A stretch of DNA of 64,000 nucleotides from Armatimonadota bacterium (GTDB taxonomy: Bacteria > Armatimonadota > Fimbriimonadia > Fimbriimonadales > GBS-DC): the NCBI GenBank assembly GCA_023511915.1, contig JAIMAN010000002.1, positions 13,488-77,487 of the forward strand. Reading direction: 5' to 3'. A program made the position numbers and the translations under genes. The notes below the pieces were generated by a model. That model saw nothing but the letters and a program-made list of their open reading frames with translations, was not told the DNA's origin and searched no databases. Each line of letters begins with the position of its first letter. Position 1 is the stretch's first letter. This document shows, one piece after another, positions 37,698 to 61,738 of the stretch.

Positions 37698-37739
37698 ACG
37701 CGCAGGCGGTTTTTGCAGATATGGAATAACCCCCATGCC

Positions 37740-39863: not shown

Positions 39864-39900
39864 CAGGAACTTTCGGCGCGCAGGGGAATCCTACAATTCC

Positions 39901-41139: not shown

Positions 41140-41141
41140 CG

Positions 41142-45300: not shown

Positions 45301-45953
45301 TGCAACGGATTGCCATCACGGGCGGCGTTGCTGAAGGCAAGACGACGGTCTTGCGCATGTTCGAGTCGCTGGGCGCACAGGCGATGAGCAGCGACCAGTT
45401 AGCGGCGACGCTTCTCGCTCCAGGGACGGAAGTATGGGAGCAACTCATCAGGGAGTTTGGACAGGCGATTACAGCGGCGGACGGCGCGCTGGTGCGGGAG
45501 CGACTGGCGGCGCTGGCGTTCGGCGACCCCGCCGTGCGCAGGCGTCTGAATCGGATGATGCACCCCGCTGTGGTGCGGGCGTTGCAGGCGCACCTGCAGG
45601 CGCGCGAGCCGTCGCCGACGCCCCTCTTCGTCGAGGTACCGCTACTGATCGAGGTCGCGCTGCAGGGCATGTTCGATGCGGTCGTGGTGGTGCAGGCGAC
45701 CCCTGCGTTGCAACGCCAGCGTCTGATGGCGCGGGGCGTCCCACCCCAGCGGGCGCGGCAAATCCTGCAGGCGCAACTGCCGACCCGCTGCAAAACCCCC
45801 TTCGCCGACTGGGTGATTCGCACCCATCGCTCGCTGGAGCAGGTCGAAGCGCAGGCGCGCCGTATCTGGCGCACACTCACGCAGCAGGTATACTCGGTAG
45901 CGCAACGGAATTCGGTTTCGGGCGTCAAAATCGGGCAGGAGTATCGCGAGTGA
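45300..45953 (+). CDS. coaE: Dephospho-CoA kinase
   Basis: P-loop IAITGGVAEGKTTV. ATG 45300 overlaps the rpsA TGA (TGATG). Confidence 0.85.
   Translation: MQRIAITGGVAEGKTTVLRMFESLGAQAMSSDQLAATLLAPGTEVWEQLIREFGQAITAADGALVRERLAALAFGDPAVRRRLNRMMHPAVVRALQAHLQAREPSPTPLFVEVPLLIEVALQGMFDAVVVVQATPALQRQRLMARGVPPQRARQILQAQLPTRCKTPFADWVIRTHRSLEQVEAQARRIWRTLTQQVYSVAQRNSVSGVKIGQEYRE
45889..45894 (+). promoter_or_regulatory. -10 box (GGTATACT) inside the coaE 3' end, 97 nt upstream of the giant surface-protein gene
   Basis: Same GGTAYAMT motif. The downstream gene has SD GAGGAGG and a GTG start at 45991. Confidence 0.35.
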
Positions 45954-45990
45954 TACGGAATCTGACTACGGAAGAGGAGGTTCGAACGCA

Positions 45991-48900
45991 GTGATACGAC
46001 GATGGCGATGGCATCTGGCACTGGCGGGGCTGTTATTGGCTTGGACGGGCTACGCCGACGACGGCGCGGGGCAGAGTGAAGACCCCTACCGCGATCGTCC
46101 GTCGCGCCATGTGTTGCCCAGTTCCGCGTATAAGCCCATCCCGCCCCAAAACTACAAGATTGCGCCGCAGCGCGCCCCGCAAAGCGGCAGCGTGCAGTGG
46201 CGCAAAAACGGGCTGTTCGACCCGCAGCAGTTCCATCAGCAGCTGCAGCAACGGCGGCAACGCACGCGCGCGCCGCGCTGGGATCGCGACATCACCAACG
46301 CCGCGCCCGACGAGATTCATCCCGTGTATAACCCTGGCGCGGCGAAGATGTTCTTTGCCAGCAACGCGGGCGGGGTCGGGCAAGACGGGCGACTGGTGAA
46401 CCCCACGCCGCGCTACCGCATCTGGCGCGGCGACCTCGACGAAGGTTCCCAAACCTACTTGAGCAATCTGACGAACCTCACGCCGATTACGGGGGACACG
46501 CCCGACGAACAGTTCGGCAGCCAGATTCAGCCATCGCTTAACGCCTCCGCGAACATTATCGCCTATGCCAACCGCAGCGCGGCAGGCAGCTACAACATCG
46601 TCGTGCGCAACCTCAGCACGGGACAGCGCGTGGTGCTGACCTCCGACAACAACGGCGTCACGCAGAACCTTCGCCCCGCGCTGAGCCCCGGCGGCAACTT
46701 GGTGATTTTCTCGTCCAACCGTCTGCTTGCGAACGAGACGGAAGCCGACCGACGCTATCGCCTCTATGTCGCACGCACGGACGGACGCCCGTTCGAAGAC
46801 GGAACCTTCTTCAGGCGCATTACCTTCCCTGATCCAGGCGAGAACGATGTGGAGCCTGCGTGGTCGCCCGACGGCAACCGTGTGGCGTTCGCCCGCATCG
46901 CCGCCGACGGAACCAGCTACATCTATATGCTGGACTTCAACACGCTGACCGTCGTGCAGTGGACGACCTTCGTCGATAGCAACGGCAACCGCCCACGCGA
47001 CCGTCAACCGACTTGGGCGCAGATTGGCGACACGCCGTATATTGTCTTCTCCTCGACGCGCAAGTCGGGTCAGCCGCACCAGCTGGGCGAGCCGTCCGAC
47101 CGCGTTGATGTGGCGAACAACATCTACGATATTTACTACCTGCCCGCGCTGTTGCCCGAGCCGCCGTCGGCAGCGAACACGCTTTCGTTGACCACCGACC
47201 CCAGCACGGCGGCGTTGGCGCGCCCCGATGTGCCCGGCGTGGCGTCCTTTGTGCCCGCTGCGGGCGCGAAGTACCCGTCCGCCGCCATCGACACGCGCAA
47301 CCGCGTCGCGTACCACTCCACCCGCACGCAGGGCGCAGAGTCGCCCGGACCGGGCGTCCACGACCTGTGGGAGACGCTGGTGTTCGACCTCACGCCGCCG
47401 CTGATGGAGATCCTGCCCATCGTCAGCCCCAAGGAGTCGTTCCCTGGCGACACGGTCACGATTAAGGTGCGTGCGCTGGATCTGCAGAGCGGTATCGACT
47501 TCGTGCGCGTGCAGTTCAAAGATCCCGATAGCGCGGAACAGGACGCCGAAGGGCTGGAACACCGCCTGTACCAGCTGTTCCAGTTCGACATCTTCTTCCC
47601 GAACCGCATTCTGGTCGATCAGGGGCAGGCGTATGTGCCGCTGTTTGTGGAGGTCGGGCAGCAGGCGATTCACCCAGAGACCTACGAATACAAGGAGCCT
47701 TACAGCCTTGCACGGCTGGGCTTCGACGGGCGTATCGACGACACCCTGCTGTTGCAGCCCGAACTGGACGACAACGGCAACCCGACGGATTGGTATGTCG
47801 CCACATGGCGCACACCCGACATTCCGAGCGACTTCTACTTGGATGTGATTGTGCGCGACAATGTGGGCAACGAGTTTATTTACGACAATATTTCGGGCTT
47901 CACGACGCAGCAATTTACGGGCGCGCACAACATCCTGCTGGTCTCGGACTACATGGGCGGTCAAATTTTCGTGCAGAACCGCGTGGACGCGATTGGCAAC
48001 TCCATCACGCGCCCGACTTGGCAGCCCGTCGAGAGCTACTGGACGGACAACCCGACAGGCAAGCCGCCATTTGACCTTACGCAGCCGCCGAGCGGGCAGG
48101 GCACAACGATTCACGGCGACGGGGCAATCCCCCACCCGAACCTCCCGCCGGGCTTTTTCATCCGCTCCGACACGCTGGGGCAGAACACCACCTACGGCAA
48201 CTTGTATAGCATTTGGCGCGTGCAGTGCCGCAACCCGATTACGCCTGCCGTGCTGGCGGGCTACCAGCCGCGCACGGAGCGCGAGCCGACCGACCTCACA
48301 GGCGGCTTCCGCAACAAGCTGCACGCGACCCGAATGGTCATCTGGGGCAGCCCCTACGCAGGCAATGTGTGGGCGGGACCCGGGCACATCTTAGATCCCG
48401 AGGTGCAGACGCTAATCCGCAGCTACCTGCAAAACAGCGGGCGCATGCTGTTTAGTGGTCAGGACATTGCCTGGGCGCTGAGCTTGCGCGGCGCGGTCGC
48501 GAACCAATTCATGAACGACATCCTGCGCGTGTCGTTCGACAGCGACACTGCCGACGATGTGTTCTTCATCCCCTATCGCGGGCTGCGCCACATCCTACAG
48601 GGTGTCGCCCCGCCCGCAGGCGAGGATCCGAACCCGTTCGCCGACAACCCTGGTGGCATCGTCATCTGGACGCGGTTTGAAGGCAACGCGCGCGTTCCCG
48701 ACCAGCCGAACGAGCTGCGCTTGTCGCACCCCGCGGCGTATGTGGTGCTGCCGACCTTCGATACCTTCGATGTGATTCCGCCTGTGGGCGCGGGCACCGG
48801 TCCGCTCTACACCGACGCTGCGTGGAACCAAGTATGGATTGACACCGTGACCGTAGCGCCGTCGGCGCGCCCGACCTACATCTACACGCAGCCGCGCGTC

Positions 48901-51477
48901 AATCAGGGCGCGCTGCTGGGCACCTCCAACCAAGCCGGCTCTTACTACGCTAATGACGCGAACCGCTCGAAGGTCGGCTTCTTGGCGTTCGGCGTCGAGG
49001 GCGTCAATTCGGCGTATTCGCAAGGTCCGCAAGACTTGCTGTGGTGCCGCTCGCTGCGCAACAAAATCATCCACAACGCCTTCGGCTGGATGACGCATAG
49101 CGTGCTGGAGGGCGTGGTGCGCCAGTACGACCCCGACACGCGCACCTTCACCCCTCTGCCGCGCGCGCTGGTGCGCGTGGTGGGCATCGCGCCCCAAAGC
49201 GTTGCGGGCGTGAACGCAGGCTACGCCATCACCGACTCCAACGGATTCTACCGAATCGTGGGGCTGGAAGCGGGCGCGTATGTGGTGGACGCGGAGCGCC
49301 CCGGCTTCAAGACGCAGCACCCCGAAACCGTCGTGCTGGTGGCAGAGACCGCCACAATTAACCTAATTATGCTGGCGACGCCGCCAGGGCAGATCAGCGG
49401 GCGCGTCATCGATATCAACAACCAGCCTGTGCGCGGCGCACTGGTGCGCGCCACGAACACCACCGACCCCGAACTGACGCTCGAGATTGTGACGGACCCC
49501 GACGGCACCTTCCTGATCCCGCGTGTGCCCGTCGGCACTTGGGAGGTGACGGTCGTGTCGCTGGCGTTCGGCGGCTACACGCTGCCTCCTGTGCAGCCCA
49601 CGCCCGACGGCGTCTATCGCGATGTGCAGGTGCGCTCTGGGGAGACGACCAATGTTGGCGACTTCGTGCTGGAGCCTGAACCGGGCACGGTCACGGGAAC
49701 CGTCACAGACGCGAACACGGGGAACCCGATTCCGAACGCGCGCGTCACCGCGGTGGCGGGCACGAACACCCGCGCCGATGTGACCACCGACGAGAACGGC
49801 GTGTACAGCTTCGATGTGCCTGCAGGCGAGTATGTGATTACGGCGGTCGCGCCAGGCTACGCGCCTGAGAGCCAAACGCTGAATGTGCCCGCGAACACGA
49901 CAACCACGCTGAACTTCCAGCTGTCGCTGCTTCCGCCTGGCTCTGCGTCGGGACGCATCGTGCGGCGCTTCGGCGGCGCGCCTGAACCCGGCGCAACAGT
50001 GCGCCTGCGCTTCGGCACGGTGGATGTCCAAACCGCCACCACAGACCCGAACGGCAACTACAGCTTCACGAATGTGCCGCCCGGCGAGTATGTGGTCATC
50101 CCCGAAAAGACGGGCTTCACCTTCACGCCGAACCAGCGCACGATTACCGTGAACTCGAACCAGAACACGGTCATCGGCGAGTTCAAGTCGGAGCCGCTGC
50201 GCACCTTCTTCAAGGGTCGCTTCCTGGTCTCCGCGCCGTATGACTACACGCAGGATGTGCGCACGCTGCTGAATGTGCCTGCGTCGGCGACCTTCCGCTT
50301 CTTCAGCTGGGATCCGAGCCAGTCGCGCTATGTGTTCTATCCAAACGCCCCTGCGAACCGCTTCCAACTCGGACGCGGCTACTTTATCGAGACTTCGGAA
50401 GACCTGCCGCTTGCCATCGAAGGCACGGCTGCCGACACGAACCAGCCGTTCCAGATCCCGCTGCAAGTTGGTTGGAACCTCATCGGCAACCCGTTCACCT
50501 TCGATGTGAACTGGAGCCAGGTGCAGTTCATCGACCCCGACACCAACACGGCGGTCTCCCTGCCGACGGCGGTGGGCAAGGGCATCGTGGCGAACGCGCT
50601 GTGGGGCTACTCGTTCGGCAGCTACTCGGCGACGACCCGCATGAAGGTCTGGGAAGGCTACTGGGTGTACGCCTACCGCGCGACGACGCTGATTATCCCG
50701 CCCAGTGCGGCAGCGACCAGCGCGTCCAACCGCAGCGCGGGCGTGGATGCAGGCAGCTGGCGACTGACACTGGAGGTGCAGTCGGGCGACTTGAAAGATC
50801 GCGCCTACATCGGCGTGTCGCGCAGCGCAACGCCAGGCTACGATACGGCGCATGACCTACTCAAGCCGCCGCCCGTCGGCGCGGACTATGTGCACATCAG
50901 CCTGCCGCGCATGAGCTGGGGCGCGCAGAGCGGCGTGTACGGCGTGGACATCCAGCCCGCCACGCGCAGCGCAAGCTGGGAGTTCACCGTGGAGAGCAGC
51001 CAGCCGAACCGCGAGGTCACCTTGCACTGGCCCGACGCGCAGCAGCTGCCGCGCGCGGCGAACCTCGTGCTGGTGAACCTTGAAACGGGCGAGCGACGCT
51101 ACCTGCGCACTTCGGGCGCGTACACCTTCCGCACGAACGCCAGCGGCGTGAGCCGATTCCGCCTCGAAATGGCGTCCAGCGGCGGGCTGCTGCGCATCCA
51201 GCAAGTGCAGGTGCAGTCGGGGCGCGGCGCACAGCACACCGTCGCGTTCCAACTGACAGGAGACGCAACCGTGCAGGTGAATATCCTATCGGGCGGTAAG
51301 GTCGTGCGCCAGCTGCTGAATCAAGCGACCCGCAGCGGCGTGCAGCAAGCCAGCTGGGACGGGCGCGACCAGAGCGGAATCGCGCTGCCGCCCGGCGCCT
51401 ACACCGTAGAGATTCGAGCCGTGAGCGAAGACGGTCAGGTTGCTCGCGCGACCGCGCCGCTGGTGCTCACGCGCTGA
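45991..51477 (+). CDS. Giant exported protein (1828 aa): TolB/PD40-like beta-propeller, central region, four to five CarboxypepD_reg-like domains, shared C-terminal module ending in an FlgD-Ig-like domain
   Basis: Signal peptide MIRRWRWHLALAGLLLAWTGYA. PD40-like repeats (PALSPGGNLVIFSSNR, EPAWSPDGNRVAFARI). CarboxypepD_reg-like repeats (GRVIDINNQPVRGALVRA...DPDGTFLIPRVPVGTWEV and similar). C-terminus ...PPGAYTVEIRAVSEDGQVARATAPLVLTR. Confidence 0.8.
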   Translation: MIRRWRWHLALAGLLLAWTGYADDGAGQSEDPYRDRPSRHVLPSSAYKPIPPQNYKIAPQRAPQSGSVQWRKNGLFDPQQFHQQLQQRRQRTRAPRWDRDITNAAPDEIHPVYNPGAAKMFFASNAGGVGQDGRLVNPTPRYRIWRGDLDEGSQTYLSNLTNLTPITGDTPDEQFGSQIQPSLNASANIIAYANRSAAGSYNIVVRNLSTGQRVVLTSDNNGVTQNLRPALSPGGNLVIFSSNRLLANETEADRRYRLYVARTDGRPFEDGTFFRRITFPDPGENDVEPAWSPDGNRVAFARIAADGTSYIYMLDFNTLTVVQWTTFVDSNGNRPRDRQPTWAQIGDTPYIVFSSTRKSGQPHQLGEPSDRVDVANNIYDIYYLPALLPEPPSAANTLSLTTDPSTAALARPDVPGVASFVPAAGAKYPSAAIDTRNRVAYHSTRTQGAESPGPGVHDLWETLVFDLTPPLMEILPIVSPKESFPGDTVTIKVRALDLQSGIDFVRVQFKDPDSAEQDAEGLEHRLYQLFQFDIFFPNRILVDQGQAYVPLFVEVGQQAIHPETYEYKEPYSLARLGFDGRIDDTLLLQPELDDNGNPTDWYVATWRTPDIPSDFYLDVIVRDNVGNEFIYDNISGFTTQQFTGAHNILLVSDYMGGQIFVQNRVDAIGNSITRPTWQPVESYWTDNPTGKPPFDLTQPPSGQGTTIHGDGAIPHPNLPPGFFIRSDTLGQNTTYGNLYSIWRVQCRNPITPAVLAGYQPRTEREPTDLTGGFRNKLHATRMVIWGSPYAGNVWAGPGHILDPEVQTLIRSYLQNSGRMLFSGQDIAWALSLRGAVANQFMNDILRVSFDSDTADDVFFIPYRGLRHILQGVAPPAGEDPNPFADNPGGIVIWTRFEGNARVPDQPNELRLSHPAAYVVLPTFDTFDVIPPVGAGTGPLYTDAAWNQVWIDTVTVAPSARPTYIYTQPRVNQGALLGTSNQAGSYYANDANRSKVGFLAFGVEGVNSAYSQGPQDLLWCRSLRNKIIHNAFGWMTHSVLEGVVRQYDPDTRTFTPLPRALVRVVGIAPQSVAGVNAGYAITDSNGFYRIVGLEAGAYVVDAERPGFKTQHPETVVLVAETATINLIMLATPPGQISGRVIDINNQPVRGALVRATNTTDPELTLEIVTDPDGTFLIPRVPVGTWEVTVVSLAFGGYTLPPVQPTPDGVYRDVQVRSGETTNVGDFVLEPEPGTVTGTVTDANTGNPIPNARVTAVAGTNTRADVTTDENGVYSFDVPAGEYVITAVAPGYAPESQTLNVPANTTTTLNFQLSLLPPGSASGRIVRRFGGAPEPGATVRLRFGTVDVQTATTDPNGNYSFTNVPPGEYVVIPEKTGFTFTPNQRTITVNSNQNTVIGEFKSEPLRTFFKGRFLVSAPYDYTQDVRTLLNVPASATFRFFSWDPSQSRYVFYPNAPANRFQLGRGYFIETSEDLPLAIEGTAADTNQPFQIPLQVGWNLIGNPFTFDVNWSQVQFIDPDTNTAVSLPTAVGKGIVANALWGYSFGSYSATTRMKVWEGYWVYAYRATTLIIPPSAAATSASNRSAGVDAGSWRLTLEVQSGDLKDRAYIGVSRSATPGYDTAHDLLKPPPVGADYVHISLPRMSWGAQSGVYGVDIQPATRSASWEFTVESSQPNREVTLHWPDAQQLPRAANLVLVNLETGERRYLRTSGAYTFRTNASGVSRFRLEMASSGGLLRIQQVQVQSGRGAQHTVAFQLTGDATVQVNILSGGKVVRQLLNQATRSGVQQASWDGRDQSGIALPPGAYTVEIRAVSEDGQVARATAPLVLTR
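50290..51474 (+). other. Shared C-terminal module, copy 1 (GWNxIGNP motif at 50470-50496)
   Basis: Collinear with 54950-56282 and 57700-58997. Blocks are PLQVGWNLIGNPF, WEGYWVYA, WRLTLEVQSGD, EVTLHWPD...LVLVNLETGERRYL, and the FlgD-Ig-like tail. Confidence 0.75.
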
Positions 51478-51506
51478 GAACAGACTATGAAGGAGGAGCA
51501 ATCAGG

Positions 51507-53282
51507 GTGAAAACACGGATGAGACGAACTTGGACGACGCGCACAGTGTATCTCGGCGTGCTGAGCATGCTCGCAGTGGGGCTGCTCTACCCGCTGGGCG
51601 CTGTGCGCGCCTACGCCCAGCTGGTGCAACTGCCGCGTGTGGCAGTGCTGGACTTCGAGAACAAAAGCGGCTTCGGTGGCGCGAGCATCGCGCGCGCAGC
51701 CACCGACGCCGTGGCAGGCGAATACCAAAAGTCGCGCAAGTTCGAGGTGTTGGCGCGCGGCGAAATCGAACAGCAACTCAAAGACCTTGATCTCTCGACG
51801 CCCCTCGATAAGACAGGGTTCTTGCGTCTGGGACGCGCGCTTCAGACCGAGTCGCTCATCACGGGCGAGGTGAACGCCGTGACCTTCGTGGGCAACCCGA
51901 AGCAGGCGCAAGTCGTGATCACCGTGCGGGTGATCGACATCGCGTCGGGTGAACCCATCAACGGCGCGGTCGCCACGGGCTTCAGCAACCGACGCCCTGG
52001 CTTCACGGGCGACGACGATACGCTGGTGCAAGAAGCCATCCGCAACGCTGCATTTGAAGCCGTGCGCACCATCAACAACTACACCATCCCTGAAGCGACA
52101 ATTCTAACCACGCGCGCGGGCAAAGAGGTGCTGCTGACCCGCGGCATTCGCGGCGGGCTGCAACCGGGCATGGAGATGATTGTCGTGCGGCGCGGCGAGG
52201 AGGTCGGACGCATCCGTGTGACCCAAGTTTCCGATAGCGACGCTGTGGGCGAAATCATCGACTTCGGGCGCGGCATTCAGAGCGAAGATCGCGCACGCGC
52301 CGTCTTCCGCGTGCCCAGCGTCGAGGTCAAAGCGGGGCGCGTGGTCACCGAGCGACCCCGCCAGCGCGGCGAGGGCAATAAACTGCTGCGGGCGCTGGGT
52401 CCGATTCTCATCATCGGGCTCATCGCGTTCGGCGTGGCGCGCGGCTCGTCGGGCGGCAACACTCCCGTACAGACAGTGCTGGCGGAGCCAAGCGCGGACG
52501 GCAACTTTGAACCGTTCGTGCGCGTCTCGTGGAAGACGACCCTCTTCGCCAAGAGCGCGCCCGACACCATCCAATGGCAAATCTACCGCTCCGATTTTAT
52601 CGGCACGGACGGCAACGGCAACCTGCAGCCTGTCGGCGTCACGCCTGGCAACCAAAACTTCTTCGTGGACTCGACTGTGCCGCGCAATGTGAGCTACGCC
52701 AGCTTGCCGCGCGAGGGCAGTGAAGACTTGGAACTGGAAGAACTTGAGGGCGCGCCTGGCGTTGCCCCCGGACGCTCGTACACCTACCAGATTGCGTTGG
52801 TCTACCGCGAGACACGCGAAGCTGAAGGTCAATCGCAGATTATCTATCGACTCTCTGACCGCGTGCGTTCGGGGCAGGCAACCGTGCTCCTGCCAGTGCA
52901 ACTGTTGACCCCTGTGCAGCGCAGCGAGGATGTCGACCCGAAGGATGTGCGCTTCAGCTGGCTGGCGGCGGAGGGCGCGAACGCCTACCGCGTGGAGGTC
53001 TCCACAGACCCGACCTTCAACGATCGGAATCGTACTTTCGTGTCGCCCGAGATTCTCTCAACTGCTGTGGGCGGCTCGCCTGTCTCCACCGAGCGCATCA
53101 ACCTTGAGACAGGGCTGCTCAATCGGCTGGGGCTGACAGGGCAACGGGTCACACTCTACTGGCGCGTCGGGGCGCGTAATCTTGGGGACAATCCTGGTCC
53201 CATGCCCGGACCTGGCGGGCTGCGCTATGTGTGGAGCCGACCGTTCGAGTTCACCACACAAGAGCTGCCGCCCAGCCCGTAG
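51507..53282 (+). CDS. Exported/membrane protein: CsgG/LpoB-like N-terminal domain, small beta-barrel domain, basic stretch plus TM, Fn3-like C-terminal half
   Basis: GTG start with SD GAAGGAGGAG and a signal peptide. RVAVLDFENKSG...SLITGEVNAV...VRVIDIASGEPI, a mid-protein TM LLRALGPILIIGLIAFGVA, then WLAAEGANAYRVEVSTDPTF (Fn3-like). Confidence 0.7.
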   Translation: MKTRMRRTWTTRTVYLGVLSMLAVGLLYPLGAVRAYAQLVQLPRVAVLDFENKSGFGGASIARAATDAVAGEYQKSRKFEVLARGEIEQQLKDLDLSTPLDKTGFLRLGRALQTESLITGEVNAVTFVGNPKQAQVVITVRVIDIASGEPINGAVATGFSNRRPGFTGDDDTLVQEAIRNAAFEAVRTINNYTIPEATILTTRAGKEVLLTRGIRGGLQPGMEMIVVRRGEEVGRIRVTQVSDSDAVGEIIDFGRGIQSEDRARAVFRVPSVEVKAGRVVTERPRQRGEGNKLLRALGPILIIGLIAFGVARGSSGGNTPVQTVLAEPSADGNFEPFVRVSWKTTLFAKSAPDTIQWQIYRSDFIGTDGNGNLQPVGVTPGNQNFFVDSTVPRNVSYASLPREGSEDLELEELEGAPGVAPGRSYTYQIALVYRETREAEGQSQIIYRLSDRVRSGQATVLLPVQLLTPVQRSEDVDPKDVRFSWLAAEGANAYRVEVSTDPTFNDRNRTFVSPEILSTAVGGSPVSTERINLETGLLNRLGLTGQRVTLYWRVGARNLGDNPGPMPGPGGLRYVWSRPFEFTTQELPPSP

Positions 53283-53289
53283 CACGCTT

Positions 53290-53319
53290 GGGGCGTAGGC
53301 TCAAGGAAACCTACGCCCC
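53290..53319 (+). terminator. Hairpin between the second and third genes of the surface locus (terminator or attenuator candidate)
   Basis: GGGGCGTAGG-ctcaaggaaa-CCTACGCCCC, a 10-bp perfect stem 8 nt after the stop, followed by GCTTGGTCGTCTTTATAG. A TATAGA hexamer follows at 53332. Confidence 0.45.
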
Positions 53320-53363
53320 GCTTGGTCGTCTTTATAGACAGCAATTATCGGGAGGAATAGCCG

Positions 53364-56285: not shown

Positions 56286-56303
56286 GGAAGGAGGCTACAG
56301 ATT

Positions 56304-59000
56304 ATGAAACGATGGATGTCAGCAATCTTGAATGGTAGCCTGGTGATGGGGATAGCTCTCGCCCAAGGCGGGAGCTATCAGCCAGGACCTGGGCAACCGT
56401 GCGGCTGTCCCAACAACGATAACCCGGTCAGCGACGATTACGCCGCACTCACGGTGGACAATGGCGTGCTGGGCGCTACGCTTGGCTTGGGCGGTACTGT
56501 TACTTGGATTACAGGATGCTTCCCGATTGAGAATGCGGAGTGTACCACTCGTCCCGCTGAGGGCAGTATCCAGCTGGGCACTTCAGGCGGCAACGCGCTG
56601 CTGGGCGATCGGGGCATCGCGCTGACCTCAGGCTATCCGTGGGGCGTCTATCCCGGCGGGATGTATATCACTATGCAGGCGCAGCGCGAGGGTCAGACCC
56701 AAACCTTCGTTTGGGGACGCGAGGGCGGACCGACGGTCACTTTTGATCAAGCCTGGCGCGGCGCGAGTGGGTTCTACATCCGCCGTATCTGGAATGTGGA
56801 AGGCTGGGACACCGACATGCGGATTGATTTGGTACAGTCCGCGGCGCGTATCAGCCTGCGCGTGCGCAACAATGGCGACACGCCCGCCTCGCTCGCGCTC
56901 CGATTGGCTTCGGATGTCGAAACAGGCGTTGAGGAGGGCTTCGACCGCAACGGCGCGTCGCGACCGCCCTATGTCTATGTGCAGGGGCAGCGACCCATAC
57001 GCACCTACACTGATATTCGGGGCGTGCAAATCCCCAACGCTATCGAGTTCTATCTGGGGCGCGGCAACCTCGCCGGCTCCTCGCGATACCTTCTGCGCCC
57101 CGTCAAGGGATTCGAAGACCAGACGCCCATCGATCGGCTGGTCGTCGGCGCGTGGCTTTTCATACAGGGCACAACGATTTGGGAGCCGACGCTGTTCCCC
57201 GATGCGTTCATCAATGATGTCGCGATCAACCTGTTTGTTAACGCACGCAATTTTGCGCCGGGTCAAGAGCGTGAGTTTGTGTTCTATGTGACGCTGACGC
57301 CCGTGGATTTGGATGTGCAGCCGCCTGTGGCGGTGGGCGTCGAGGCGCTGCCTGTGGTGGAGCCAGACCCGCAAGACCTGTCGCAGTTGGCAAATGACGG
57401 CGAGTTCGTGATTGTCGCGAATGTCACGAACCAGTTCTTCATTGTCGGGCGCGAGATTGACCTGACGAATGTGGCGGTGGACTTGTCGCTGCCTGCAGGC
57501 GTCTCGCTTGCGCCTGGGGAAACGCGCACCCGCACCATCGCGCGCCTTGCACCTGGGCAGACCGCGCCCTTGAGGTGGCGTGTGGTGGCAGACCCGACCA
57601 CAGTGGGCTTCGTGACCTTCCGCGTTTCGGTGCAGGCGCCGCCCGCACCCACAAAGTCCGTGGCGCGCACGATTCTCATCTCCGCCACCGCCAACCGCAA
57701 ACTGGAGTCGGGCTTCCAGATCGTCTCGATTCCCTTCACGACCACCAGCTCACTGGATGAGGTGTTGAATCTGCCCGGCGCGTACCAAGCGAAGCGCTGG
57801 AACCCCGAACGCGAGCTATATGAGACCATAGACACTATTCAGCCTGGTCAGGGCTTCTGGATCTTCTTGCCAGGCGACGCCACCACTGCCCAATACGATG
57901 CGACCAACTTACGCTTCCCCGACAATGTGTTCACCACAAGTGTGCCACTGCCGCTCAAGCGTGGGTGGAACCAAATTGGCAATCCGTACCCTTATCCGCT
58001 CGTGCTGGGGCAGGTAGTCATCGTGCCAGCCAGTGACCCGTCGCGTAGCATTAGCTTCTTCGAGGCGGCGCAGCGTGGCGTCATTCGCGGCGTTCTCTAC
58101 TACTGGGACGAGTTCTCGCGCGAGTATAAGTTCACTTCTGACCCGAACACGCCACTCCTGCCGCATCGGGGCTACTGGATCAAAGTGAACGAAGACATTG
58201 AGTTCGTCTACCCGCCTGTGTTTTTGCCTGGTACGGGCTTTGGCGGGGTGATCATCCGTTCCGCTGAGGAGCGTCCCAATCTGCCCAACGATTGGCGACT
58301 GCAGATTGTGGCGCGTACGACCCGCGGCGCGGACACGCAGAACTTCATCGGCATGAGCAGCGGGCGCAGCGCAGGCGACATCGAGGAGCCGCCGACGCCG
58401 CTGCCTGACCGCCCCGTGAACTTGGTCATCCTCAAGTCGGGCACAGGCGCGCCGCTGATGCAAGAAATCCGCCCGCTTGCCAATCGCCAACAGTTCGACT
58501 TGATGGTGGAGGCGGGCGCGGGCGAGGAGGTCACGCTGTCCTTCCCGAACCTGAACACGGTGCCGCAGGGCTACCGCCTGCGCCTGACCGACTTGAACAC
58601 GGGACGCGCGGTCGATCTGCGCACGACGCCTGAGTACCGCTTCGTCTCCACAGGGCGCACGCGCCTGCAAATCACCGTCGAGCGCGCGGCGCGTACAGGC
58701 GCGCTGATTACCAGCGTGAATGTGGGCAGCGCAGGGCGCGGCGCCAACAGCGTGTCCATCTCCTATGTGCTGGCAGACAACGCGCAGACCAGCATCCAGA
58801 TTCTTGGCTCGGATGGTCGAGCGATTGCAAGCCTGCATCGCGGACGCGCAGCCACGCGCGGCGTCAACACGGTCTCGTGGAACCTGCGCGACGATCAAGG
58901 GCGCGCCGTACCGCCGGGAACCTATCAGGTGCAGGTCGAGGCGCGCACTGAAGACGGTCAGACGGCGCGCGCGGTGCGACCGCTGGTGCTGACCCGATAA
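56304..59000 (+). CDS. Exported hypothetical protein (898 aa) carrying the shared C-terminal module
   Basis: Signal peptide MKRWMSAILNGSLVMGIALAQG. I do not recognise the N-terminal roughly 460 aa. C-terminus ...PPGTYQVQVEARTEDGQTARAVRPLVLTR. Confidence 0.75.
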   Translation: MKRWMSAILNGSLVMGIALAQGGSYQPGPGQPCGCPNNDNPVSDDYAALTVDNGVLGATLGLGGTVTWITGCFPIENAECTTRPAEGSIQLGTSGGNALLGDRGIALTSGYPWGVYPGGMYITMQAQREGQTQTFVWGREGGPTVTFDQAWRGASGFYIRRIWNVEGWDTDMRIDLVQSAARISLRVRNNGDTPASLALRLASDVETGVEEGFDRNGASRPPYVYVQGQRPIRTYTDIRGVQIPNAIEFYLGRGNLAGSSRYLLRPVKGFEDQTPIDRLVVGAWLFIQGTTIWEPTLFPDAFINDVAINLFVNARNFAPGQEREFVFYVTLTPVDLDVQPPVAVGVEALPVVEPDPQDLSQLANDGEFVIVANVTNQFFIVGREIDLTNVAVDLSLPAGVSLAPGETRTRTIARLAPGQTAPLRWRVVADPTTVGFVTFRVSVQAPPAPTKSVARTILISATANRKLESGFQIVSIPFTTTSSLDEVLNLPGAYQAKRWNPERELYETIDTIQPGQGFWIFLPGDATTAQYDATNLRFPDNVFTTSVPLPLKRGWNQIGNPYPYPLVLGQVVIVPASDPSRSISFFEAAQRGVIRGVLYYWDEFSREYKFTSDPNTPLLPHRGYWIKVNEDIEFVYPPVFLPGTGFGGVIIRSAEERPNLPNDWRLQIVARTTRGADTQNFIGMSSGRSAGDIEEPPTPLPDRPVNLVILKSGTGAPLMQEIRPLANRQQFDLMVEAGAGEEVTLSFPNLNTVPQGYRLRLTDLNTGRAVDLRTTPEYRFVSTGRTRLQITVERAARTGALITSVNVGSAGRGANSVSISYVLADNAQTSIQILGSDGRAIASLHRGRAATRGVNTVSWNLRDDQGRAVPPGTYQVQVEARTEDGQTARAVRPLVLTR
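57700..58997 (+). other. Shared C-terminal module, copy 3 (GWNQIGNPY at 57962-57988)
   Basis: Collinear blocks: PLKRGWNQIGNPY, HRGYWIKV, WRLQIVARTTRG, EVTLSFPN...LRLTDLNTGRAVDL, and the FlgD-Ig-like tail. Confidence 0.75.
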
Positions 59001-59047
59001 CGCATCACGGGCTGGGGCAACCCCCCAGCCCACCTAAAGGAGGCGCA

Positions 59048-59743
59048 ATGGTGAGAACTTACTGGGCAGTGATCATCGCATGCCTGTCGCTCGGATGGAG
59101 TGCGGCGCAGACACGCGAACTGGTGCTGTTCCCGTTCGCGCAGGGCGCGGCGGTGCAACCGAGCGACGAGTTCAATGTAAATGTCGAGGCGCTCAACGCC
59201 CTCTACGCGCAGCTCAAAGAGATTCCCAGCATCTATGTGCTACGGTTCCGTGAGACGAACCCGTCGATTACCCGCGCGATTGAGGAGAACCGTATTCGGC
59301 GCGACCGCCTGAACCCACCGTTCAACGAGCGCGAGGCGGACGGTACTTGGCGCGCCGCGCGCGTGGGCGCACTGCTGGATGTTGACCTCGCGTTTGCAGG
59401 GCGCATCGAGGAGTTCAGCTACGACCCCACCAAGCGCGAGGCAATTATCACCATCAGCGGCGACCTCATCGATGTGCGCACGGGTGAGGTCATCGTCTCG
59501 GTGGCGGAGTCAGGACGCGGGCGGTTAGGCTCTGACCAAGAGGATGTGAACATCGCCCGAATCGCTGCGGTGGCTGAGGTCGCCCAGAAGGTGGGCGCAG
59601 CGTTGCGCGAACGCTTAGCGCCGCCTGTGCAGCAACCAACCCAACCGCAAGAAGAGCGTCGCCCCGACCGCAAACGCGAGCGCGCGACAGTGACGCTGTT
59701 CGCGATTATTCTGGGCGCGGTGCTGGGCGGCTCGCAGTTTTAG
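59048..59743 (+). CDS. Small exported CsgG/LpoB-like domain protein with basic linker and C-terminal TM anchor
   Basis: Signal peptide MVRTYWAVIIACLSLGWSAAQ. DLAFAGRIEEFSYDP...ISGDLIDVRTGEVIV is paralogous to the N-domain of the 51507 gene. Tail is RRPDRKRERATVTLFAIILGAVLGGSQF. Confidence 0.7.
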   Translation: MVRTYWAVIIACLSLGWSAAQTRELVLFPFAQGAAVQPSDEFNVNVEALNALYAQLKEIPSIYVLRFRETNPSITRAIEENRIRRDRLNPPFNEREADGTWRAARVGALLDVDLAFAGRIEEFSYDPTKREAIITISGDLIDVRTGEVIVSVAESGRGRLGSDQEDVNIARIAAVAEVAQKVGAALRERLAPPVQQPTQPQEERRPDRKRERATVTLFAIILGAVLGGSQF

Positions 59744-59744
59744 A

Positions 59745-61682
59745 ATGTGCAAGCGACCCATCCGACGACTGATCGGGGCAGGGGGGCTGTGGCTCCTCTG
59801 CCTTTGTGCTTGTTGGGCGAATGGGGCAATTCGCCTGAGCGTCTACCCCGCGGCGGCGGTCGCCGACGGCGCAACGCAAATTCTGGTGGTCGCCGAAGTG
59901 CGCACCAGTCAGGGCAAGCCTGCGCCCGACGGCACGCAGGTCGCGTTCACCACGACGCTGGGCGCGTTCCGCGAGCCTGTGGTCGCCACCGAGGGCGGCG
60001 TGGCGCGTGCGACGCTCATCGCCAGCCAGACGCCCGGCGCCGCGACGATTACCGCGACCGCTGTCGGGCTGGGCGTTGTGGGTGAGACTCAGGCGCTGTT
60101 CGTGGCGACCCAAGACGAGCTGCGCAGCGCGACCGACTATGTGCAAGTGCTGGGCGCGGAGTACCTCGCCTACGCCAACGAGCAGCGCGTCATCGCCGCG
60201 TCGGGCAAGGCGCGCGGCGCAAGCGTCCGCTTCGGCTTCACGCGCATCGAGGCGGACGACCTGCAGCTGGAAGTGGAGAGCCTGCGCGTGAAGGCGCGCA
60301 ACGCTCGCCTGCAGTACGGCTCCGAAGCTGCCGAGTTTGCCGAACTGAGCTATGAGTTGCGCGCCTTGCAAGGCTACGGGCTGACCCAACGCGATGGACG
60401 CTGGGAAGTCGTGCGCGTGCGCTACGGGGCAATCGAGCCGTTTGACGCTGTGGTTCCGCCTGAGCTGTTCCAGTTCGCCGACATCTCCGAGTCGGATTTG
60501 GTCATCAAGGCGGCGCAGATTTGGTTCTACCCCAACGAGCGCATTCAGTTCCACCGCGCGGAGTTTTATGTGGGCGAGGTGCGCTCGCTGAGCCTGCCGC
60601 TCTATTCGCAAAGCCTCTGGAGTGGTGGCGTCGGCAGCGACACGCTGATTGGCGTGCAGAGCGGGCAGGTCTATCTGGATGTGCCGTACTACTACACGCT
60701 GTCGCCGACGCAGATTGGCGCGTTGCGCTTGCGCACGGCGCAGGTGGGCGGGCGCACCATGGGCGCGGCGCGAGGGATGTTCCTTGACCTCGAACACGAG
60801 TATCGGGTCGGGCTGGGCACGGGGATGGTGAGCCTCACCAGCCTGGCACGCAGCGACTGGGGGGTGAACTGGCGGCATCAGCAGCCGCTTGCGCCGAACA
60901 CGCGCCTTGCGCTGTGGCTCGACTCGCCTGCGCATCAGGGCGTCTACGGCTCCCTGCAACTCTCGCATCAGGCGCGCGGCTACTCGACAGGCGCGACGCT
61001 TGCGGGCAGCACCTATTGGCGCGGCGCGCGTGCGCAGAGTCTCCGCACGGATGTGTTCATCGAGACCACTCCGCGCCGCGTCGCCGATTTGCCGCTGCGC
61101 CAGAGCCTATCGCTGAACCTTACGACCAACCGCGTGCAAGGCAGTTTGGGGACACAGACCCGTGAGGGCGTCGGCGTCCGCGCACGCTGGAATCTCATTC
61201 CCCAATCGCTGGGGCAGGGAACCACCCTCACGGGCGGGCTTACGGTGGGGCGGTTCGTGGGCAACCTACCCAACGCGGGCTGGAGCCTCACAGGCACTTT
61301 GGGGATTACGCAAGCGTTGGGCGCGAGCGGCGCGCTCAGCATCAACTATGACTACGCTCAAGACGCGCTCGGCGCAAACCTGCTGGGCAGACACCGACTG
61401 TCGGGCAGCCTCACTTGGAGCGCTGGCGAGCGATACTACCTCACAGGCTACTTCAGCCGCGCCTTAGACGCCGATTCTGTGAGCTATGTCGGGGACTTCT
61501 CGTGGCGAATTAGCCCCCTCTGGCGGATGGGATTGGGGTATACTTGGCAGCGGTATCAGCAGTACGACTTTCGCGACCAAACCTTCACCATCGCCTATCG
61601 GATAGGCTTCCGCGAGGTCGCGCTGACTTGGTCGTCCTTCACGAAGCGATGGGGCTTCGACCTGCTCACGGCGTTCTACTAA
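59745..61682 (+). CDS. Putative outer-membrane beta-barrel protein with N-terminal bacterial Ig-like (Big_1-type) domain
   Basis: Signal peptide. IRLSVYPAAAVADGATQILVVAEVRTSQGKPAPDGTQVAFTTTLG resembles invasin/intimin Big_1. The C-terminal roughly 400 aa alternate hydrophobic/polar residues, rich in G/S/T/Y, ending ...WGFDLLTAFY (aromatic terminus). Starts 1 nt after the previous gene. Confidence 0.6.
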   Translation: MCKRPIRRLIGAGGLWLLCLCACWANGAIRLSVYPAAAVADGATQILVVAEVRTSQGKPAPDGTQVAFTTTLGAFREPVVATEGGVARATLIASQTPGAATITATAVGLGVVGETQALFVATQDELRSATDYVQVLGAEYLAYANEQRVIAASGKARGASVRFGFTRIEADDLQLEVESLRVKARNARLQYGSEAAEFAELSYELRALQGYGLTQRDGRWEVVRVRYGAIEPFDAVVPPELFQFADISESDLVIKAAQIWFYPNERIQFHRAEFYVGEVRSLSLPLYSQSLWSGGVGSDTLIGVQSGQVYLDVPYYYTLSPTQIGALRLRTAQVGGRTMGAARGMFLDLEHEYRVGLGTGMVSLTSLARSDWGVNWRHQQPLAPNTRLALWLDSPAHQGVYGSLQLSHQARGYSTGATLAGSTYWRGARAQSLRTDVFIETTPRRVADLPLRQSLSLNLTTNRVQGSLGTQTREGVGVRARWNLIPQSLGQGTTLTGGLTVGRFVGNLPNAGWSLTGTLGITQALGASGALSINYDYAQDALGANLLGRHRLSGSLTWSAGERYYLTGYFSRALDADSVSYVGDFSWRISPLWRMGLGYTWQRYQQYDFRDQTFTIAYRIGFREVALTWSSFTKRWGFDLLTAFY

Positions 61683-61738
61683 ACGCAGGGTTAACTTACA
61701 CAAGGGTAGAGTATAGACGCACACTTTGGAGGCAGGCT

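What the first reader, a model, noticed from the sequence alone, without database searches (positions are those of the whole stretch)
45889..61682. 15.7-kb same-strand locus of six exported proteins: three cargo-like giants, two CsgG/LpoB-like anchors and an outer-membrane barrel
Six consecutive plus-strand genes all begin with signal peptides, and the gaps between them are only 29, 81, 18, 47 and 1 nt. The genes are: (A) a 1828-aa TolB-propeller plus CarboxypepD_reg protein; (B) a CsgG/LpoB-like domain protein with a mid-chain TM and Fn3-like half; (C) an S8 subtilase; (D) an 898-aa protein of unknown N-terminal fold; (E) a small paralogue of the B N-domain with a C-terminal TM; and (F) a Big_1 plus beta-barrel protein ending in ...TAFY. 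A, C and D share a long C-terminal module (next finding). The layout pairs cargo proteins carrying a common C-terminal domain with periplasmic or membrane accessory proteins, a protease and a barrel. That is the logic of a dedicated surface-display or secretion-and-anchoring system, compare T9SS CTD cargo or curli CsgG/E/F. I recognise none of the canonical components of those systems here. A hairpin at 53290-53319 followed by a TATAGA box may split the locus into two transcription units (A-B and C-F).
Basis: partly seen in the sequence, partly recalled or inferred. Interest (0 to 1): 0.75.

Follow-up and report, generated by a model that had tools for sequence, protein, structure and literature searches.

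The report
LptD-like barrel in conserved envelope operon
Six neighbouring genes for exported proteins in a hot-spring Armatimonadota genome form a block conserved across the phylum. Its outer-membrane barrel is a very divergent relative of LptD, the lipopolysaccharide inserter, paired with PelC/LptE-like partners, so it is probably not a wholly unknown secretion pore.

Summary
There are six + strand genes: A 45991-51477, B 51507-53282, C 53364-56285, D 56304-59000, E 59048-59743 and F 59745-61682. The gaps are 29/81/18/47/1 nt, every product has an N-terminal signal sequence, and A, C and D share a ~410-aa C-terminal module.

The genes are co-conserved. The order A-B-C-D-E-F recurs in 9 other Fimbriimonadia genomes, down to 34% F identity. 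Reduced or substituted versions occur in class HRBIN16 and in unclassified contigs, where an M6 protease replaces S8 and the giant protein has other domains.

F is not an unknown barrel. It consists of Big_1, an Lpt/OstA-type beta-jellyroll and a large barrel. Its top 28 Foldseek matches are all LptD (E ~1e-14). A profile alignment to E. coli LptD (E 3.8e-5; BamA and FimD controls fail) matches 'PYYYTLSP' to the lateral-gate 'PYYWNIAP'.

E and the N-domain of B have the PelC/CsgG/FlgT/LpoB fold, which also matches a C. jejuni LptE structure. Each carries a hydrophobic helix and no lipobox.

Best reading: an Armatimonadota LptD-type translocon with non-canonical partners, co-transcribed with module-bearing envelope proteins. 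I could not test whether F is the only LptD. A protein secretion or anchoring role therefore remains possible, at about 0.25.

The parts
45991..51477 (+). Gene A: 1828-aa exported giant. It has a signal peptide, PD40/TolB-like propeller repeats, a ~600-aa region of unknown fold, 4 CarboxypepD_reg domains and the C-terminal module.
   Evidence: ORF; Pfam; RBS and start.
50248..51474 (+). C-terminal module of A (~410 aa). It has three sub-domains: a 'GWNxIGNPF...GYWV' domain, a 'WRLxL...KPP...TLxWP' domain, and FlgD_ig ending in PLVLTR.
   Evidence: Alignments; tblastn; FlgD matches in PDB.
51507..53282 (+). Gene B: 591 aa. It has a signal peptide, a PelC/CsgG/LpoB-fold domain (~44-190), a beta-rich domain, a hydrophobic helix (residues 293-311, nt 52383-52439) and a ~280-aa beta-rich C-terminal half.
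   Evidence: hhalign to the E family; alignment A5; hydropathy scan; B-family HMM hits in distant loci at 1e-77 to 7e-85.
53290..53319 (+). GC-rich hairpin (10-bp stem, 10-nt loop) directly after the B stop, followed by a GTCGTCTTTATAGAC motif. Possible terminator, attenuator or mRNA 3'-end stabiliser separating A-B from C-F.
   Evidence: Sequence; positional conservation with sequence change in 9 of 10 orthologous loci. The terminator scan did not call it.
53364..56285 (+). Gene C: 973-aa subtilase. It has a signal peptide, a fervidolysin-like propeptide, an S8 catalytic domain and the C-terminal module (about nt 55149-56282).
   Evidence: Pfam; module alignment.
56304..59000 (+). Gene D: 898 aa. 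It has a signal peptide, a ~440-aa N-terminal region with no family match and the C-terminal module (about nt 57696-58997).
   Evidence: D-like genes are present in L001, L003, L017 and L021.
59048..59743 (+). Gene E: 231 aa. It has a signal peptide, a PelC/CsgG/FlgT/LpoB-fold alpha/beta domain (23-190), a disordered Pro- and basic-rich linker and a C-terminal hydrophobic helix (213-231). Its stop lies 1 nt before the F start.
   Evidence: AlphaFold model, pLDDT 85; Foldseek; profile hit to PelC, E 8e-6; weak Pfam hits.
59745..61682 (+). Gene F: 645-aa outer-membrane protein. It has a signal peptide, Big_1 (res 28-120, nt 59826-60104), an Lpt/OstA-type beta-jellyroll (res ~133-283, nt 60141-60593) and an LptD-like beta-barrel (res ~300-645, nt 60642-61679). 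The invariant P314 lies in 'PYYYTLSP', and the protein ends in an aromatic residue (TAFY).
   Evidence: Model; Foldseek; hhalign with controls; weak LptD_N/OstA_2/LptA/LptC hits in family members; alignments.

Best explanation
The locus is an Armatimonadota-specific cell-envelope operon built around a very divergent LptD-type outer-membrane translocon.

**F.** After Sec export and BAM insertion, F would sit in the outer membrane. Its Big_1 domain and Lpt-type jellyroll would face the periplasm. F would pass lipopolysaccharide, or a related amphipathic glycolipid, along the jellyroll groove and out through a lateral gate into the outer leaflet, as LptD does.

**E and B.** E is translationally coupled to F. 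B is its larger paralogue. Both would be the periplasmic partners of the barrel. They have the alpha/beta fold shared by ring-forming PelC, CsgG and FlgT and by LptE. They would act as a plug and/or a periplasmic collar. They are tethered by a hydrophobic helix instead of the lipid anchor used by LptE and PelC.

**A, C and D.** These are Sec-exported envelope or surface proteins: a propeller/CarboxypepD_reg giant, a secreted protease and a protein of unknown fold. They share a three-domain C-terminal module ending in a FlgD/T9SS-CTD-like Ig domain. They are co-expressed with the translocon. I infer that the module docks them at or near the complex or its lipid product.

**Shown versus inferred.** Shown: gene structure, co-conservation, folds, LptD-specific similarity of F, and PelC/CsgG/LpoB-type fold of E and B. 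Inferred: LPS as the substrate, physical E/B-F contact, membrane location of the helices, and module docking.
For: **F resembles LptD specifically.**
- The F model has a Big_1 domain, a jellyroll and a barrel.
- Its 28 best PDB matches are all LptD. Full-length LptD scores E 1e-14 to 1e-11, against 3e-07 to 2e-05 for barrel-only (core-complex) LptD entries, so both jellyroll and barrel contribute.
- The F-family profile aligns to E. coli LptD at the jellyroll/barrel junction with E 3.8e-5. In that alignment 'DVPYYYTLSP' matches 'YLPYYWNIAP'.
- P314 is invariant in 53 family members.
- The BamA and FimD controls give probabilities of 0.4% and 3.3%.
- Family members give weak LptD_N (4/53), OstA_2, LptA and LptC hits.

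**The organism plausibly makes LPS.**
- Armatimonadetes encode the core LPS genes (PMC5007114).
- The window itself encodes a GT9 heptosyltransferase and a BamB-like protein.
- One related contig has flgH/flgI next to the cluster.

**E and B fit as barrel partners.**
- The E model has pLDDT 85.
- It matches FlgT, PelC, CsgG and GNA1162, and also Cj1090c. Cj1090c is C. jejuni LptE (PMC10077673).
- The E profile hits PelC by sequence at E 8e-6.
- E and the B N-domain are homologous.
- The E stop and F start are 1 nt apart.

**The genes travel together.**
- The A-F order is kept in 9 other genomes/MAGs (10 fetched loci: L004-L006 and L008-L013, L015, plus L014 at 34% F identity).
- B/E/F plus module proteins recur in L003, L017, L019, L021 and L030.
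- F occurs once per genome in the 10 species genomes found.
- F is standalone in L018 and L029, as a housekeeping gene could be.
Against: - No Pfam LptD (PF04453) or NCBIfam LptD model is matched.
- A profile search against PDB sequences finds only the Big_1 domain.
- The F model is of modest quality (pLDDT 69, pTM 0.43) and TM-scores to LptD are only ~0.25.
- The barrel segment is ~350 aa, against ~550 aa in E. coli. The strand count cannot be fixed (22-26).
- The second LptD gate proline (P231) is not conserved.
- The E family shows no profile similarity to E. coli LptE. It resembles PelC, CsgG and FlgT more than LptE.
- No lptA/B/C/F/G genes lie within the 64-kb window or within 10 kb of F in any locus.
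- LPS insertion does not explain why module-bearing proteins and a protease are kept next to F over such divergence.
- I could not check whether these genomes hold another, canonical LptD.
Confidence: 0.5

Rival explanations
1. This is a dedicated protein secretion, anchoring or surface-display system. An LptD-derived barrel (F), together with PelC-like collars (B and E), exports or anchors proteins that carry the three-domain C-terminal module. The protease would process them. One variant: the complex couples lipid/LPS insertion to attachment of surface proteins, analogous to the T9SS attachment complex PorU/V/Z/Q with A-LPS. Another variant: F inserts the hydrophobic helices of B and E into the outer membrane.
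For: - B, E, F and D-like genes stay linked while the 'cargo' is exchanged: S8 to M6 protease, and a PD40 giant to an SBBP/Kre9 giant.
- The module is also found on unlinked proteins with other N-terminal domains, such as WD40 and Big_13.
- Some distant full-module relatives end in a Pfam Por_Secre_tail domain or are named T9SS type A sorting domain.
- There are weak similarities to the PorU and PorZ CTDs.
- L030 has a module protein immediately upstream of F.
- B carries ~280 residues of beta-rich, extracytoplasmic-looking sequence after its helix. In Fimbriimonadia the basic cluster lies before the helix. That arrangement fits an outer-membrane-spanning helix better than an inner-membrane one.
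Against: - The LptD fold is known only as a lipid/LPS inserter.
- No known protein-secretion component (T9SS Por/Spr, usher, secretin, TPS, Slam) is detected in the locus.
- A serine-to-metalloprotease swap is hard to reconcile with a sortase-like transpeptidase.
- Module proteins in L022 and L023 have no B/E/F nearby.
- F occurs without B, E or cargo in L018 and L029.
- The charge asymmetry around the helices is not kept in distant homologues.
Confidence: 0.27
2. This is a polymer-export complex of the PelBC or curli type. E and B would form a periplasmic ring on a barrel that exports an exopolysaccharide or amyloid fibre. A, C and D would be matrix or processing proteins.
For: - The E fold and sequence profile match PelC.
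- In PelBC a 12-mer PelC ring is mounted on the PelB barrel (PMC12141448).
- There are weak CsgG hits, and NCBI names one homologue 'CsgG/HfaB family'.
Against: - No glycosyltransferase, polysaccharide synthase, TPR-porin, PelA/D-G or CsgA/B/E/F genes lie in or beside any of the loci.
- F matches LptD, not PelB/AlgE/BcsC-type porins.
- E and B lack the lipobox that anchors PelC and CsgG.
Confidence: 0.08
3. There is no functional coupling. The six genes are simply vertically inherited neighbours encoding unrelated envelope proteins.
For: - Most complete copies come from one class (Fimbriimonadia), where synteny could be inherited.
- The flanking rpsA-coaE and PvlArgDC genes are also often kept.
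Against: - The order is retained at 27-41% protein identity (L014).
- It is also retained in class HRBIN16 and in more distant contigs, with non-orthologous replacement of the protease and the giant but retention of B/E/F.
- The gaps are tight and the E-F junction is 1 nt.
Confidence: 0.07

Closest known systems
LptD-LptE lipopolysaccharide translocon (e.g. PDB 5IV9, 4Q35, 4RHB)
   Same: - F has the same domain order: a periplasmic Lpt/OstA beta-jellyroll followed by a very large C-terminal barrel.
- It carries the LptD 'PYY..(A/S)P' motif, whose proline aligns with LptD P246 at the start of the barrel.
- LptD structures are its best structural matches.
- A small periplasmic alpha/beta protein (E) is encoded with it, and E's fold also matches a C. 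jejuni LptE structure.
   Different: - F has an extra N-terminal Big_1 domain in all 53 family members examined.
- Its barrel segment is about 200 residues shorter.
- It has no Pfam or NCBIfam LptD match.
- The P231 equivalent is absent.
- The partner E is not a lipoprotein, has a C-terminal hydrophobic helix, and is closer to PelC, CsgG and FlgT than to LptE.
- There is a second, larger paralogue (B).
- The genes are embedded with module-bearing exported proteins rather than near surA/pdxA or lpt genes.
PelC of the PelBC exopolysaccharide exporter (PDB 5T10, 5T11, 5T0Z, 9H80)
   Same: E and the B N-domain share the fold and a detectable sequence-profile similarity (E 8e-6). Like PelC, they are encoded next to an outer-membrane barrel.
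   Different: - They have no lipobox.
- They are anchored by a hydrophobic helix.
- The partner barrel is LptD-like, not a TPR-porin.
- There are no pel biosynthesis genes.
- The oligomeric state is unknown.
Type IX secretion CTD cargo and the PorU/PorV/PorZ/PorQ attachment complex
   Same: - Sec-exported proteins of diverse function share a C-terminal Ig-like domain.
- A protease carries the same domain.
- An outer-membrane barrel is encoded nearby.
- Some distant relatives of the module end in a Por_Secre_tail domain.
   Different: - The shared unit here is a ~410-aa three-domain module, not an ~80-aa CTD.
- The terminal domain scores as FlgD_ig.
- No PorK/L/M/N, SprA/Sov, PorV or PorU homologues are detected in the locus.
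- The phylum (Armatimonadota) is not known to have a T9SS.
- The protease class is not fixed (S8 or M6).
Curli CsgG/CsgE/CsgF and Caulobacter HfaB
   Same: The fold of E and B resembles the periplasmic domain of CsgG. NCBI names one homologue 'CsgG/HfaB family'.
   Different: - The CsgG Pfam model is matched only below threshold.
- There is no lipobox.
- No CsgA/B/E/F or HfaA/D genes are present.
- A separate large barrel (F) is present, whereas CsgG forms its own pore.
Intimin/invasin inverse autotransporters
   Same: F has a Big_1/Invasin_D3 domain joined to an outer-membrane beta-barrel.
   Different: - The domain order is reversed: Big_1 precedes the barrel.
- There is a single Big_1 domain.
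- The barrel is LptD-like and far larger than 12 strands.
- A jellyroll lies between the two.

Membership tests
LptD (LPS-assembly outer-membrane protein) | N-terminal periplasmic Lpt/OstA-type beta-jellyroll | tested here: met
   - The model shows a multi-strand beta domain at residues 133-283 with pLDDT 80-94.
- Full-length LptD structures score far better than barrel-only (core-complex) LptD entries (E 1e-14 to 1e-11 vs 3e-07 to 2e-05).
- Family members give weak hits to LptD_N (4/53, best 0.0018), OstA_2, LptA and LptC.
LptD (LPS-assembly outer-membrane protein) | Very large (26-strand) C-terminal beta-barrel | tested here: inconclusive
   About 22 confident strands lie between residues 300 and 645, plus a low-confidence stretch at 276-345. 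The top 28 Foldseek hits are LptD, but TM-scores are ~0.25 and model pTM is 0.43.
LptD (LPS-assembly outer-membrane protein) | Conserved prolines in strands beta1/beta2 at the lateral gate (E. coli P231 and P246) | tested here: inconclusive
   hhalign aligns F 'DVPYYYTLSP' to LptD 'YLPYYWNIAP'. F P314 corresponds to P246 and is invariant in 53 sequences. The P231 position is Asp in F. The identity of P231/P246 as the gate prolines comes from my own knowledge of the LptD literature.
LptD (LPS-assembly outer-membrane protein) | Match to the curated family model (Pfam PF04453 or NCBIfam LptD) above its cut-off | tested here: not met
   No hit, even at E<=10, in 53 family members. A profile search against PDB sequences finds only invasin/intimin Big_1. 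The only sequence-level link is hhalign at E 3.8e-5, probability 71%, with negative BamA and FimD controls.
LptD (LPS-assembly outer-membrane protein) | Single essential copy that exports LPS, fed by an LptA/C bridge | not testable with these tools
   There is one F locus per species genome among the 10 found. Whole genomes could not be scanned for a second LptD or for lptA/B/C/F/G. None lies within the window or the 10-kb flanks.
LptE | Small outer-membrane lipoprotein with the LptE fold that plugs LptD | tested here: inconclusive
   - The E model matches Cj1090c (C. jejuni LptE) at E 5.8e-5, TMt 0.56, but only at rank 50.
- One of 13 E-family members hits Pfam LptE at 0.007.
- There is no profile similarity to E. 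coli LptE.
- The lipobox Cys is not conserved.
PelC | PelC alpha/beta fold and sequence similarity | tested here: met
   hmmsearch of the E profile hits PelC (5T11) at E 8e-6. Foldseek gives E ~3e-7 and TMt ~0.6.
PelC | N-terminal lipobox (outer-membrane lipoprotein) | tested here: not met
   The Cys in 'VIIAC' is present only in the closest homologues. Most have none.
PelC | Encoded in a pel operon with the PelB TPR-porin and PelA, PelD-G | tested here: not met
   No such domains occur in the window locus or in related loci.
PelC | Dodecameric ring on the barrel | not testable with these tools
   No multimer prediction was available.
CsgG / curli secretion | CsgG family model above cut-off, lipobox, and csgA/B/E/F partners | tested here: not met
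   CsgG hits are only sub-threshold (7/13 members, best 0.007; cut-off 20.8 bits). There is no conserved lipobox and no curli genes.
Type IX secretion system | Cargo with a type A/B CTD (Por_Secre_tail / TIGR04183) | tested here: inconclusive
   The terminal domain scores as FlgD_ig. Similarity to the PorU/PorZ CTDs is weak and not significant. Some distant full-module relatives do carry PF18962.
Type IX secretion system | Core machinery PorK/L/M/N, SprA/Sov, PorV and PorU | tested here: not met
   None is detected among the six proteins or the window neighbours. Presence elsewhere in the genome is not testable.
Inverse autotransporter (intimin/invasin) | N-terminal 12-strand barrel followed by C-terminal Big_1 passenger repeats | tested here: not met
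   In F a single Big_1 precedes a jellyroll and an LptD-like barrel.

The most novel reading that the evidence does not exclude
An LptD-derived barrel (F), together with helix-anchored PelC-like proteins (B and E), forms a previously undescribed outer-membrane machine in Armatimonadota. It would either export or anchor proteins carrying the ~410-aa C-terminal module, possibly by coupling them to the lipid it inserts. Alternatively, it would use the Lpt-type hydrophobic groove and lateral gate to insert alpha-helical anchors into the outer membrane.
Probability: 0.22. Interest if true: 0.85.

Novelty: new variant of a known kind. Interest (0 to 1): 0.6.

Why it matters
**If F is the Armatimonadota LptD.** It would show how far the LPS translocon can diverge: an added Big_1 domain, a compact barrel, and a non-lipoprotein, helix-anchored partner with a PelC-like fold. 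It would also supply a candidate for the 'missing' LptD/LptE in lineages where sequence searches fail. The same problem was noted for diderm Firmicutes in PMC5007114.

**If F has been repurposed.** The locus would be a new outer-membrane protein-anchoring or insertion system built from Lpt parts.

**In either case.** The conserved linkage of an LptD-type barrel, PelC-like proteins and module-bearing exported proteins is undescribed in the searched literature. It also gives a concrete, testable gene set in a poorly studied phylum.

Tried and rejected
- **Lipoprotein status of E and F.** Rejected, because the Cys is not conserved.
- **Sequence-level identification of F.** Pfam, NCBIfam and a profile search against PDB sequences found only Big_1. 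A profile search of 1.84 billion representatives gave 494 hits, and the 150 listed were nearly all ~640-720 aa. This is a self-contained family that does not reach canonical LptD.
- **E as a sequence homologue of E. coli LptE.** No signal.
- **B against PDB sequences.** No hit.
- **Module against PDB sequences.** Only the FlgD Ig domain.
- **Literature.** A search for Armatimonadota plus LptD found nothing specific.
- **Terminator scan.** It did not call the B-C hairpin, and promoter-like hits were at chance level.
- **Topology argument from charge asymmetry.** The basic cluster before the helices is not conserved in distant homologues, so I did not rely on it.
- **Other copies in the window.** No other module, B/E or F copies exist in the 64-kb window.

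Full report
**1. Observation**

The region holds six consecutive + strand ORFs:
- A: 45991-51477, 1828 aa
- B: 51507-53282, 591 aa
- C: 53364-56285, 973 aa
- D: 56304-59000, 898 aa
- E: 59048-59743, 231 aa
- F: 59745-61682, 645 aa

A starts at GTG 45991, behind a GGAAGAGGAGG ribosome-binding site, and 45889-45953 is the end of coaE.

All six N-termini look like Sec signal peptides on inspection. Only B (293-311) and E (213-231) have a further hydrophobic helix. The Cys residues that might suggest lipoboxes in E and F are not conserved.

Pfam gives the following:
- A: PD40, 4 CarboxypepD_reg, FlgD_ig
- C: S8 with a fervidolysin-like propeptide, plus FlgD_ig
- D: FlgD_ig
- F: Big_1/Invasin_D3
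- B and E: nothing

A, C and D share 28-34% identity over their last ~370-450 residues. No other copy of this module, of B/E or of F exists in the window.

The flanks are housekeeping genes. Upstream lie two FHA proteins, an amidohydrolase, rpsA and coaE. Downstream lie a pyruvoyl arginine decarboxylase and NAD synthase. Further away are a GT9 heptosyltransferase, a BamB-like protein and fliO/fliP.

**2. Organism and co-conservation**

Homologues of F and E come from thermophilic Armatimonadota, mostly Fimbriimonadales MAGs such as HR14/HR15, KatS3mg and JP3_11.

A scan of species-representative genomes found 10 true loci, all Armatimonadota, one per genome. A tblastn of the six window proteins on the fetched loci shows the complete order A-B-C-D-E-F in 10 fetched loci (L004/L005, L006, L008-L013, L015 and L014), which represent 9 other genomes/MAGs. 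In L014 identities have fallen to 27-41%.

Variants of the cluster:
- L003 (HR16) has D-like, a 2036-aa module protein, E and F. HRBIN16 is a class-level clade separate from Fimbriimonadia (PMC9671151).
- L001 has rpsA, coaE, B, D-like and F.
- L017 has an SBBP/Kre9 giant, B, an M6 metalloprotease with the module, D-like, an E-like gene and F.
- L019 has a PD40/CarboxypepD_reg giant, B, E and F, next to flgF-I.
- L021 has B, S8, D-like, E and F.
- L030 has a module protein, then a PEGA protein with LpoB-like units (judged by eye), then F.

HMMs confirm the B and E assignments in the distant loci. F stands without these partners in L018 and L029, which are short contigs.

B, E and F are the constant parts. 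The giant and the protease are replaceable by analogous proteins.

**3. What F is**

An AlphaFold model built with 16 homologues (pLDDT 69, pTM 0.43) shows four parts: a signal helix, Big_1 (28-120), a multi-stranded beta domain (133-283, the best-modelled part) and a large barrel (about 300-645).

Foldseek against the PDB returns LptD for the first 28 hits. Full-length LptD structures score E 1e-14 to 1e-11. Barrel-only (core-complex) LptD entries score 3e-07 to 2e-05. Ushers and BtuB follow at about 1e-5 to 1e-4. Both the jellyroll and the barrel therefore contribute to the match.

Sequence methods alone see only Big_1. A 53-member family profile, however, aligns to E. coli LptD at the topologically equivalent jellyroll/barrel junction (F 268-390 to LptD 197-329; E 3.8e-5, probability 71%). 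The alignment pairs 'LPLYS' with 'SPYLQ' and 'DVPYYYTLSP' with 'YLPYYWNIAP'. F P314, which corresponds to LptD P246, is one of only three residues invariant across the family. The same profile against BamA and FimD gives probabilities of 0.4% and 3.3%.

Some family members also give weak LptD_N, OstA_2, LptA and LptC hits.

The family is self-contained. It has 494 representatives at E<=1e-3. The 150 listed are nearly all 640-720 aa, and Big_1 was detected in all 53 examined.

I conclude that F is a divergent LptD-type protein. Armatimonadetes encode the core LPS pathway (PMC5007114), so they need such a translocon. The simplest reading is that this family is their LptD. I could not scan whole genomes to exclude a second, canonical copy.

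**4. What E and B are**

The E model (pLDDT 85) has three parts: an alpha/beta domain (23-190), a disordered Pro- and basic-rich linker, and a C-terminal helix. Its Foldseek matches are FlgT, PelC, CT253, CsgG, GNA1162 and HpaA. At rank 50 it matches Cj1090c, which is C. jejuni LptE (PMC10077673).

The E profile hits PelC by sequence at E 8e-6. Family members give sub-threshold CsgG, LpoB and (once) LptE hits. There is no similarity to E. coli LptE.

The B N-domain is homologous to E. B continues with a beta-rich domain, the hydrophobic helix and ~280 further beta-rich residues.

PelC forms a 12-mer ring mounted on the periplasmic rim of the PelB barrel (PMC12141448). LptE plugs LptD. Either geometry is possible for E and B with F.

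In Fimbriimonadia a basic cluster precedes the helix in both proteins, and the sequence after it is neutral. That pattern would suit an outer-membrane helix with a surface-exposed C-terminal part. It is not kept in distant homologues, so the membrane in which these helices sit remains open.

**5. The shared module**

The ~410-aa module has three beta-rich parts: a 'GWNxIGNPF...GYWV' domain, a 'WRLxL...KPP...TLxWP' domain, and a FlgD_ig domain ending in P(L/V)V(L/V)TR. Only the last part has solved relatives, which are FlgD. PorU and PorZ CTDs appear only at non-significant E values.

A profile search finds the whole module on other proteins with different N-terminal domains, such as WD40 and Big_13. 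It also finds a few distant relatives whose last domain is a T9SS Por_Secre_tail.

Two such proteins (L022, L023) lie far from any B/E/F genes. Each is followed by an overlapping small lipoprotein gene. The module therefore behaves like a general tag of a class of exported proteins, three of which are always kept beside B/E/F.

**6. Operon structure**

The hairpin at 53290-53319 is real. A strong hairpin follows the B stop in 9 of 10 orthologous loci, with different stem sequences. It is followed by a GCGTCTATAC-like motif. The simple terminator scan did not call it, and no convincing sigma-70 promoter was found. A split or attenuation between A-B and C-F is plausible but untested.

**7. Interpretation**

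- **Best explanation (0.5).** An Armatimonadota envelope operon centred on a divergent LptD-type translocon (F). Its partners (E and B) have the PelC/LptE fold and are helix-anchored. It is co-expressed with module-bearing exported proteins (A, C, D) that probably associate with the complex or its lipid product.
- **Main rival (0.27).** The LptD-derived barrel and its collars form a dedicated anchoring or secretion device for module proteins. The retention of B/E/F alongside exchangeable 'cargo' favours this. The nature of the LptD fold, the S8-to-M6 swap, and standalone F genes argue against it.
- **Minor rivals.** PelBC- or curli-like polymer export (0.08) lacks any biosynthetic or fibre genes. 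Pure synteny without function (0.07) is unlikely given the depth of conservation.

**8. Novelty and score**

The locus nevertheless does not fit any described system. It combines an LptD-type barrel carrying Big_1, non-lipidated PelC-like partners and a three-domain C-terminal module. This combination is conserved across at least two Armatimonadota classes and is absent from the searched literature.

I rate it a new variant of a known kind, interest 0.6. The most novel surviving reading is a new Lpt-derived protein-anchoring or helix-insertion machine (probability 0.22, interest 0.85).

Noticed in passing
window 53283-53363; L004, L006, L008-L013 and L015 B-C intergenic regions: A strong GC-rich hairpin immediately after the B stop is conserved in position but not in sequence (compensatory stems). 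It is followed by a conserved GCGTCTATAC-like motif. It may be a terminator or attenuator, or a 3'-end stabiliser plus an internal promoter.
   Followed up: partly
L022 8001-9931; L023 8001-10491: Module-bearing proteins elsewhere (a 485-aa protein, and a WD40+module protein of 654 aa) are each followed by an overlapping gene. That gene encodes a ~160-175-aa lipoprotein (lipobox 'ACGGGGG') with an Ig-like domain ending in PP(A/S)PPF. This recurrent pair is not present in the window locus.
   Followed up: partly
window 51462-51474, 56270-56282 and 58985-58997 (C-termini of A, C and D): A, C, D and their orthologues in Fimbriimonadia and HRBIN16 end in a near-invariant P(L/V)V(L/V)(T/A)R. More distant homologues end differently. 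This could be a recognition or processing motif at the extreme C-terminus.
   Followed up: no
L017 3035-6253 versus window 53364-56285: At the position of the S8 subtilase, a distant version of the cluster carries a Peptidase_M6 metalloprotease with the same C-terminal module. This is a non-orthologous replacement of the protease.
   Followed up: partly
window 37422-42527: An 813-aa ORF with no Pfam match is followed by two tandem FHA-domain proteins (412 and 461 aa) whose FHA region also scores as the T3SS YscD cytoplasmic domain. They lie just upstream of amidohydrolase-rpsA-coaE. They are not conserved next to the locus in L001.
   Followed up: no
window 61544-62233: The mechanical ORF for the pyruvoyl-dependent arginine decarboxylase overlaps the end of F by 139 nt. 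The Pfam match starts at residue 87, and orthologues are ~167 aa, so the true start is probably near 61730. This gene follows F in most Fimbriimonadia loci.
   Followed up: partly
window 21779-23095 and 51-1316: A GT9 heptosyltransferase (LPS core type) and a BamB-like PQQ propeller protein are encoded in the same window. Both are consistent with an LPS-containing outer membrane.
   Followed up: no
L003 11947-13065: In HR16 a rhomboid-family protease with a zinc ribbon directly follows F. This is not seen in the other loci.
   Followed up: no
L019 8999-9907; L021 8766-9866; L003 9212-9985: Distant E homologues carry Gly/Ser/Thr/Pro-rich tails after, or instead of, the C-terminal helix (e.g. 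'GGGGGGGGNSGSTSTGTTTPVTTGGPPSPP'). These resemble extracytoplasmic linkers. This bears on which side of which membrane the E C-terminus faces.
   Followed up: partly
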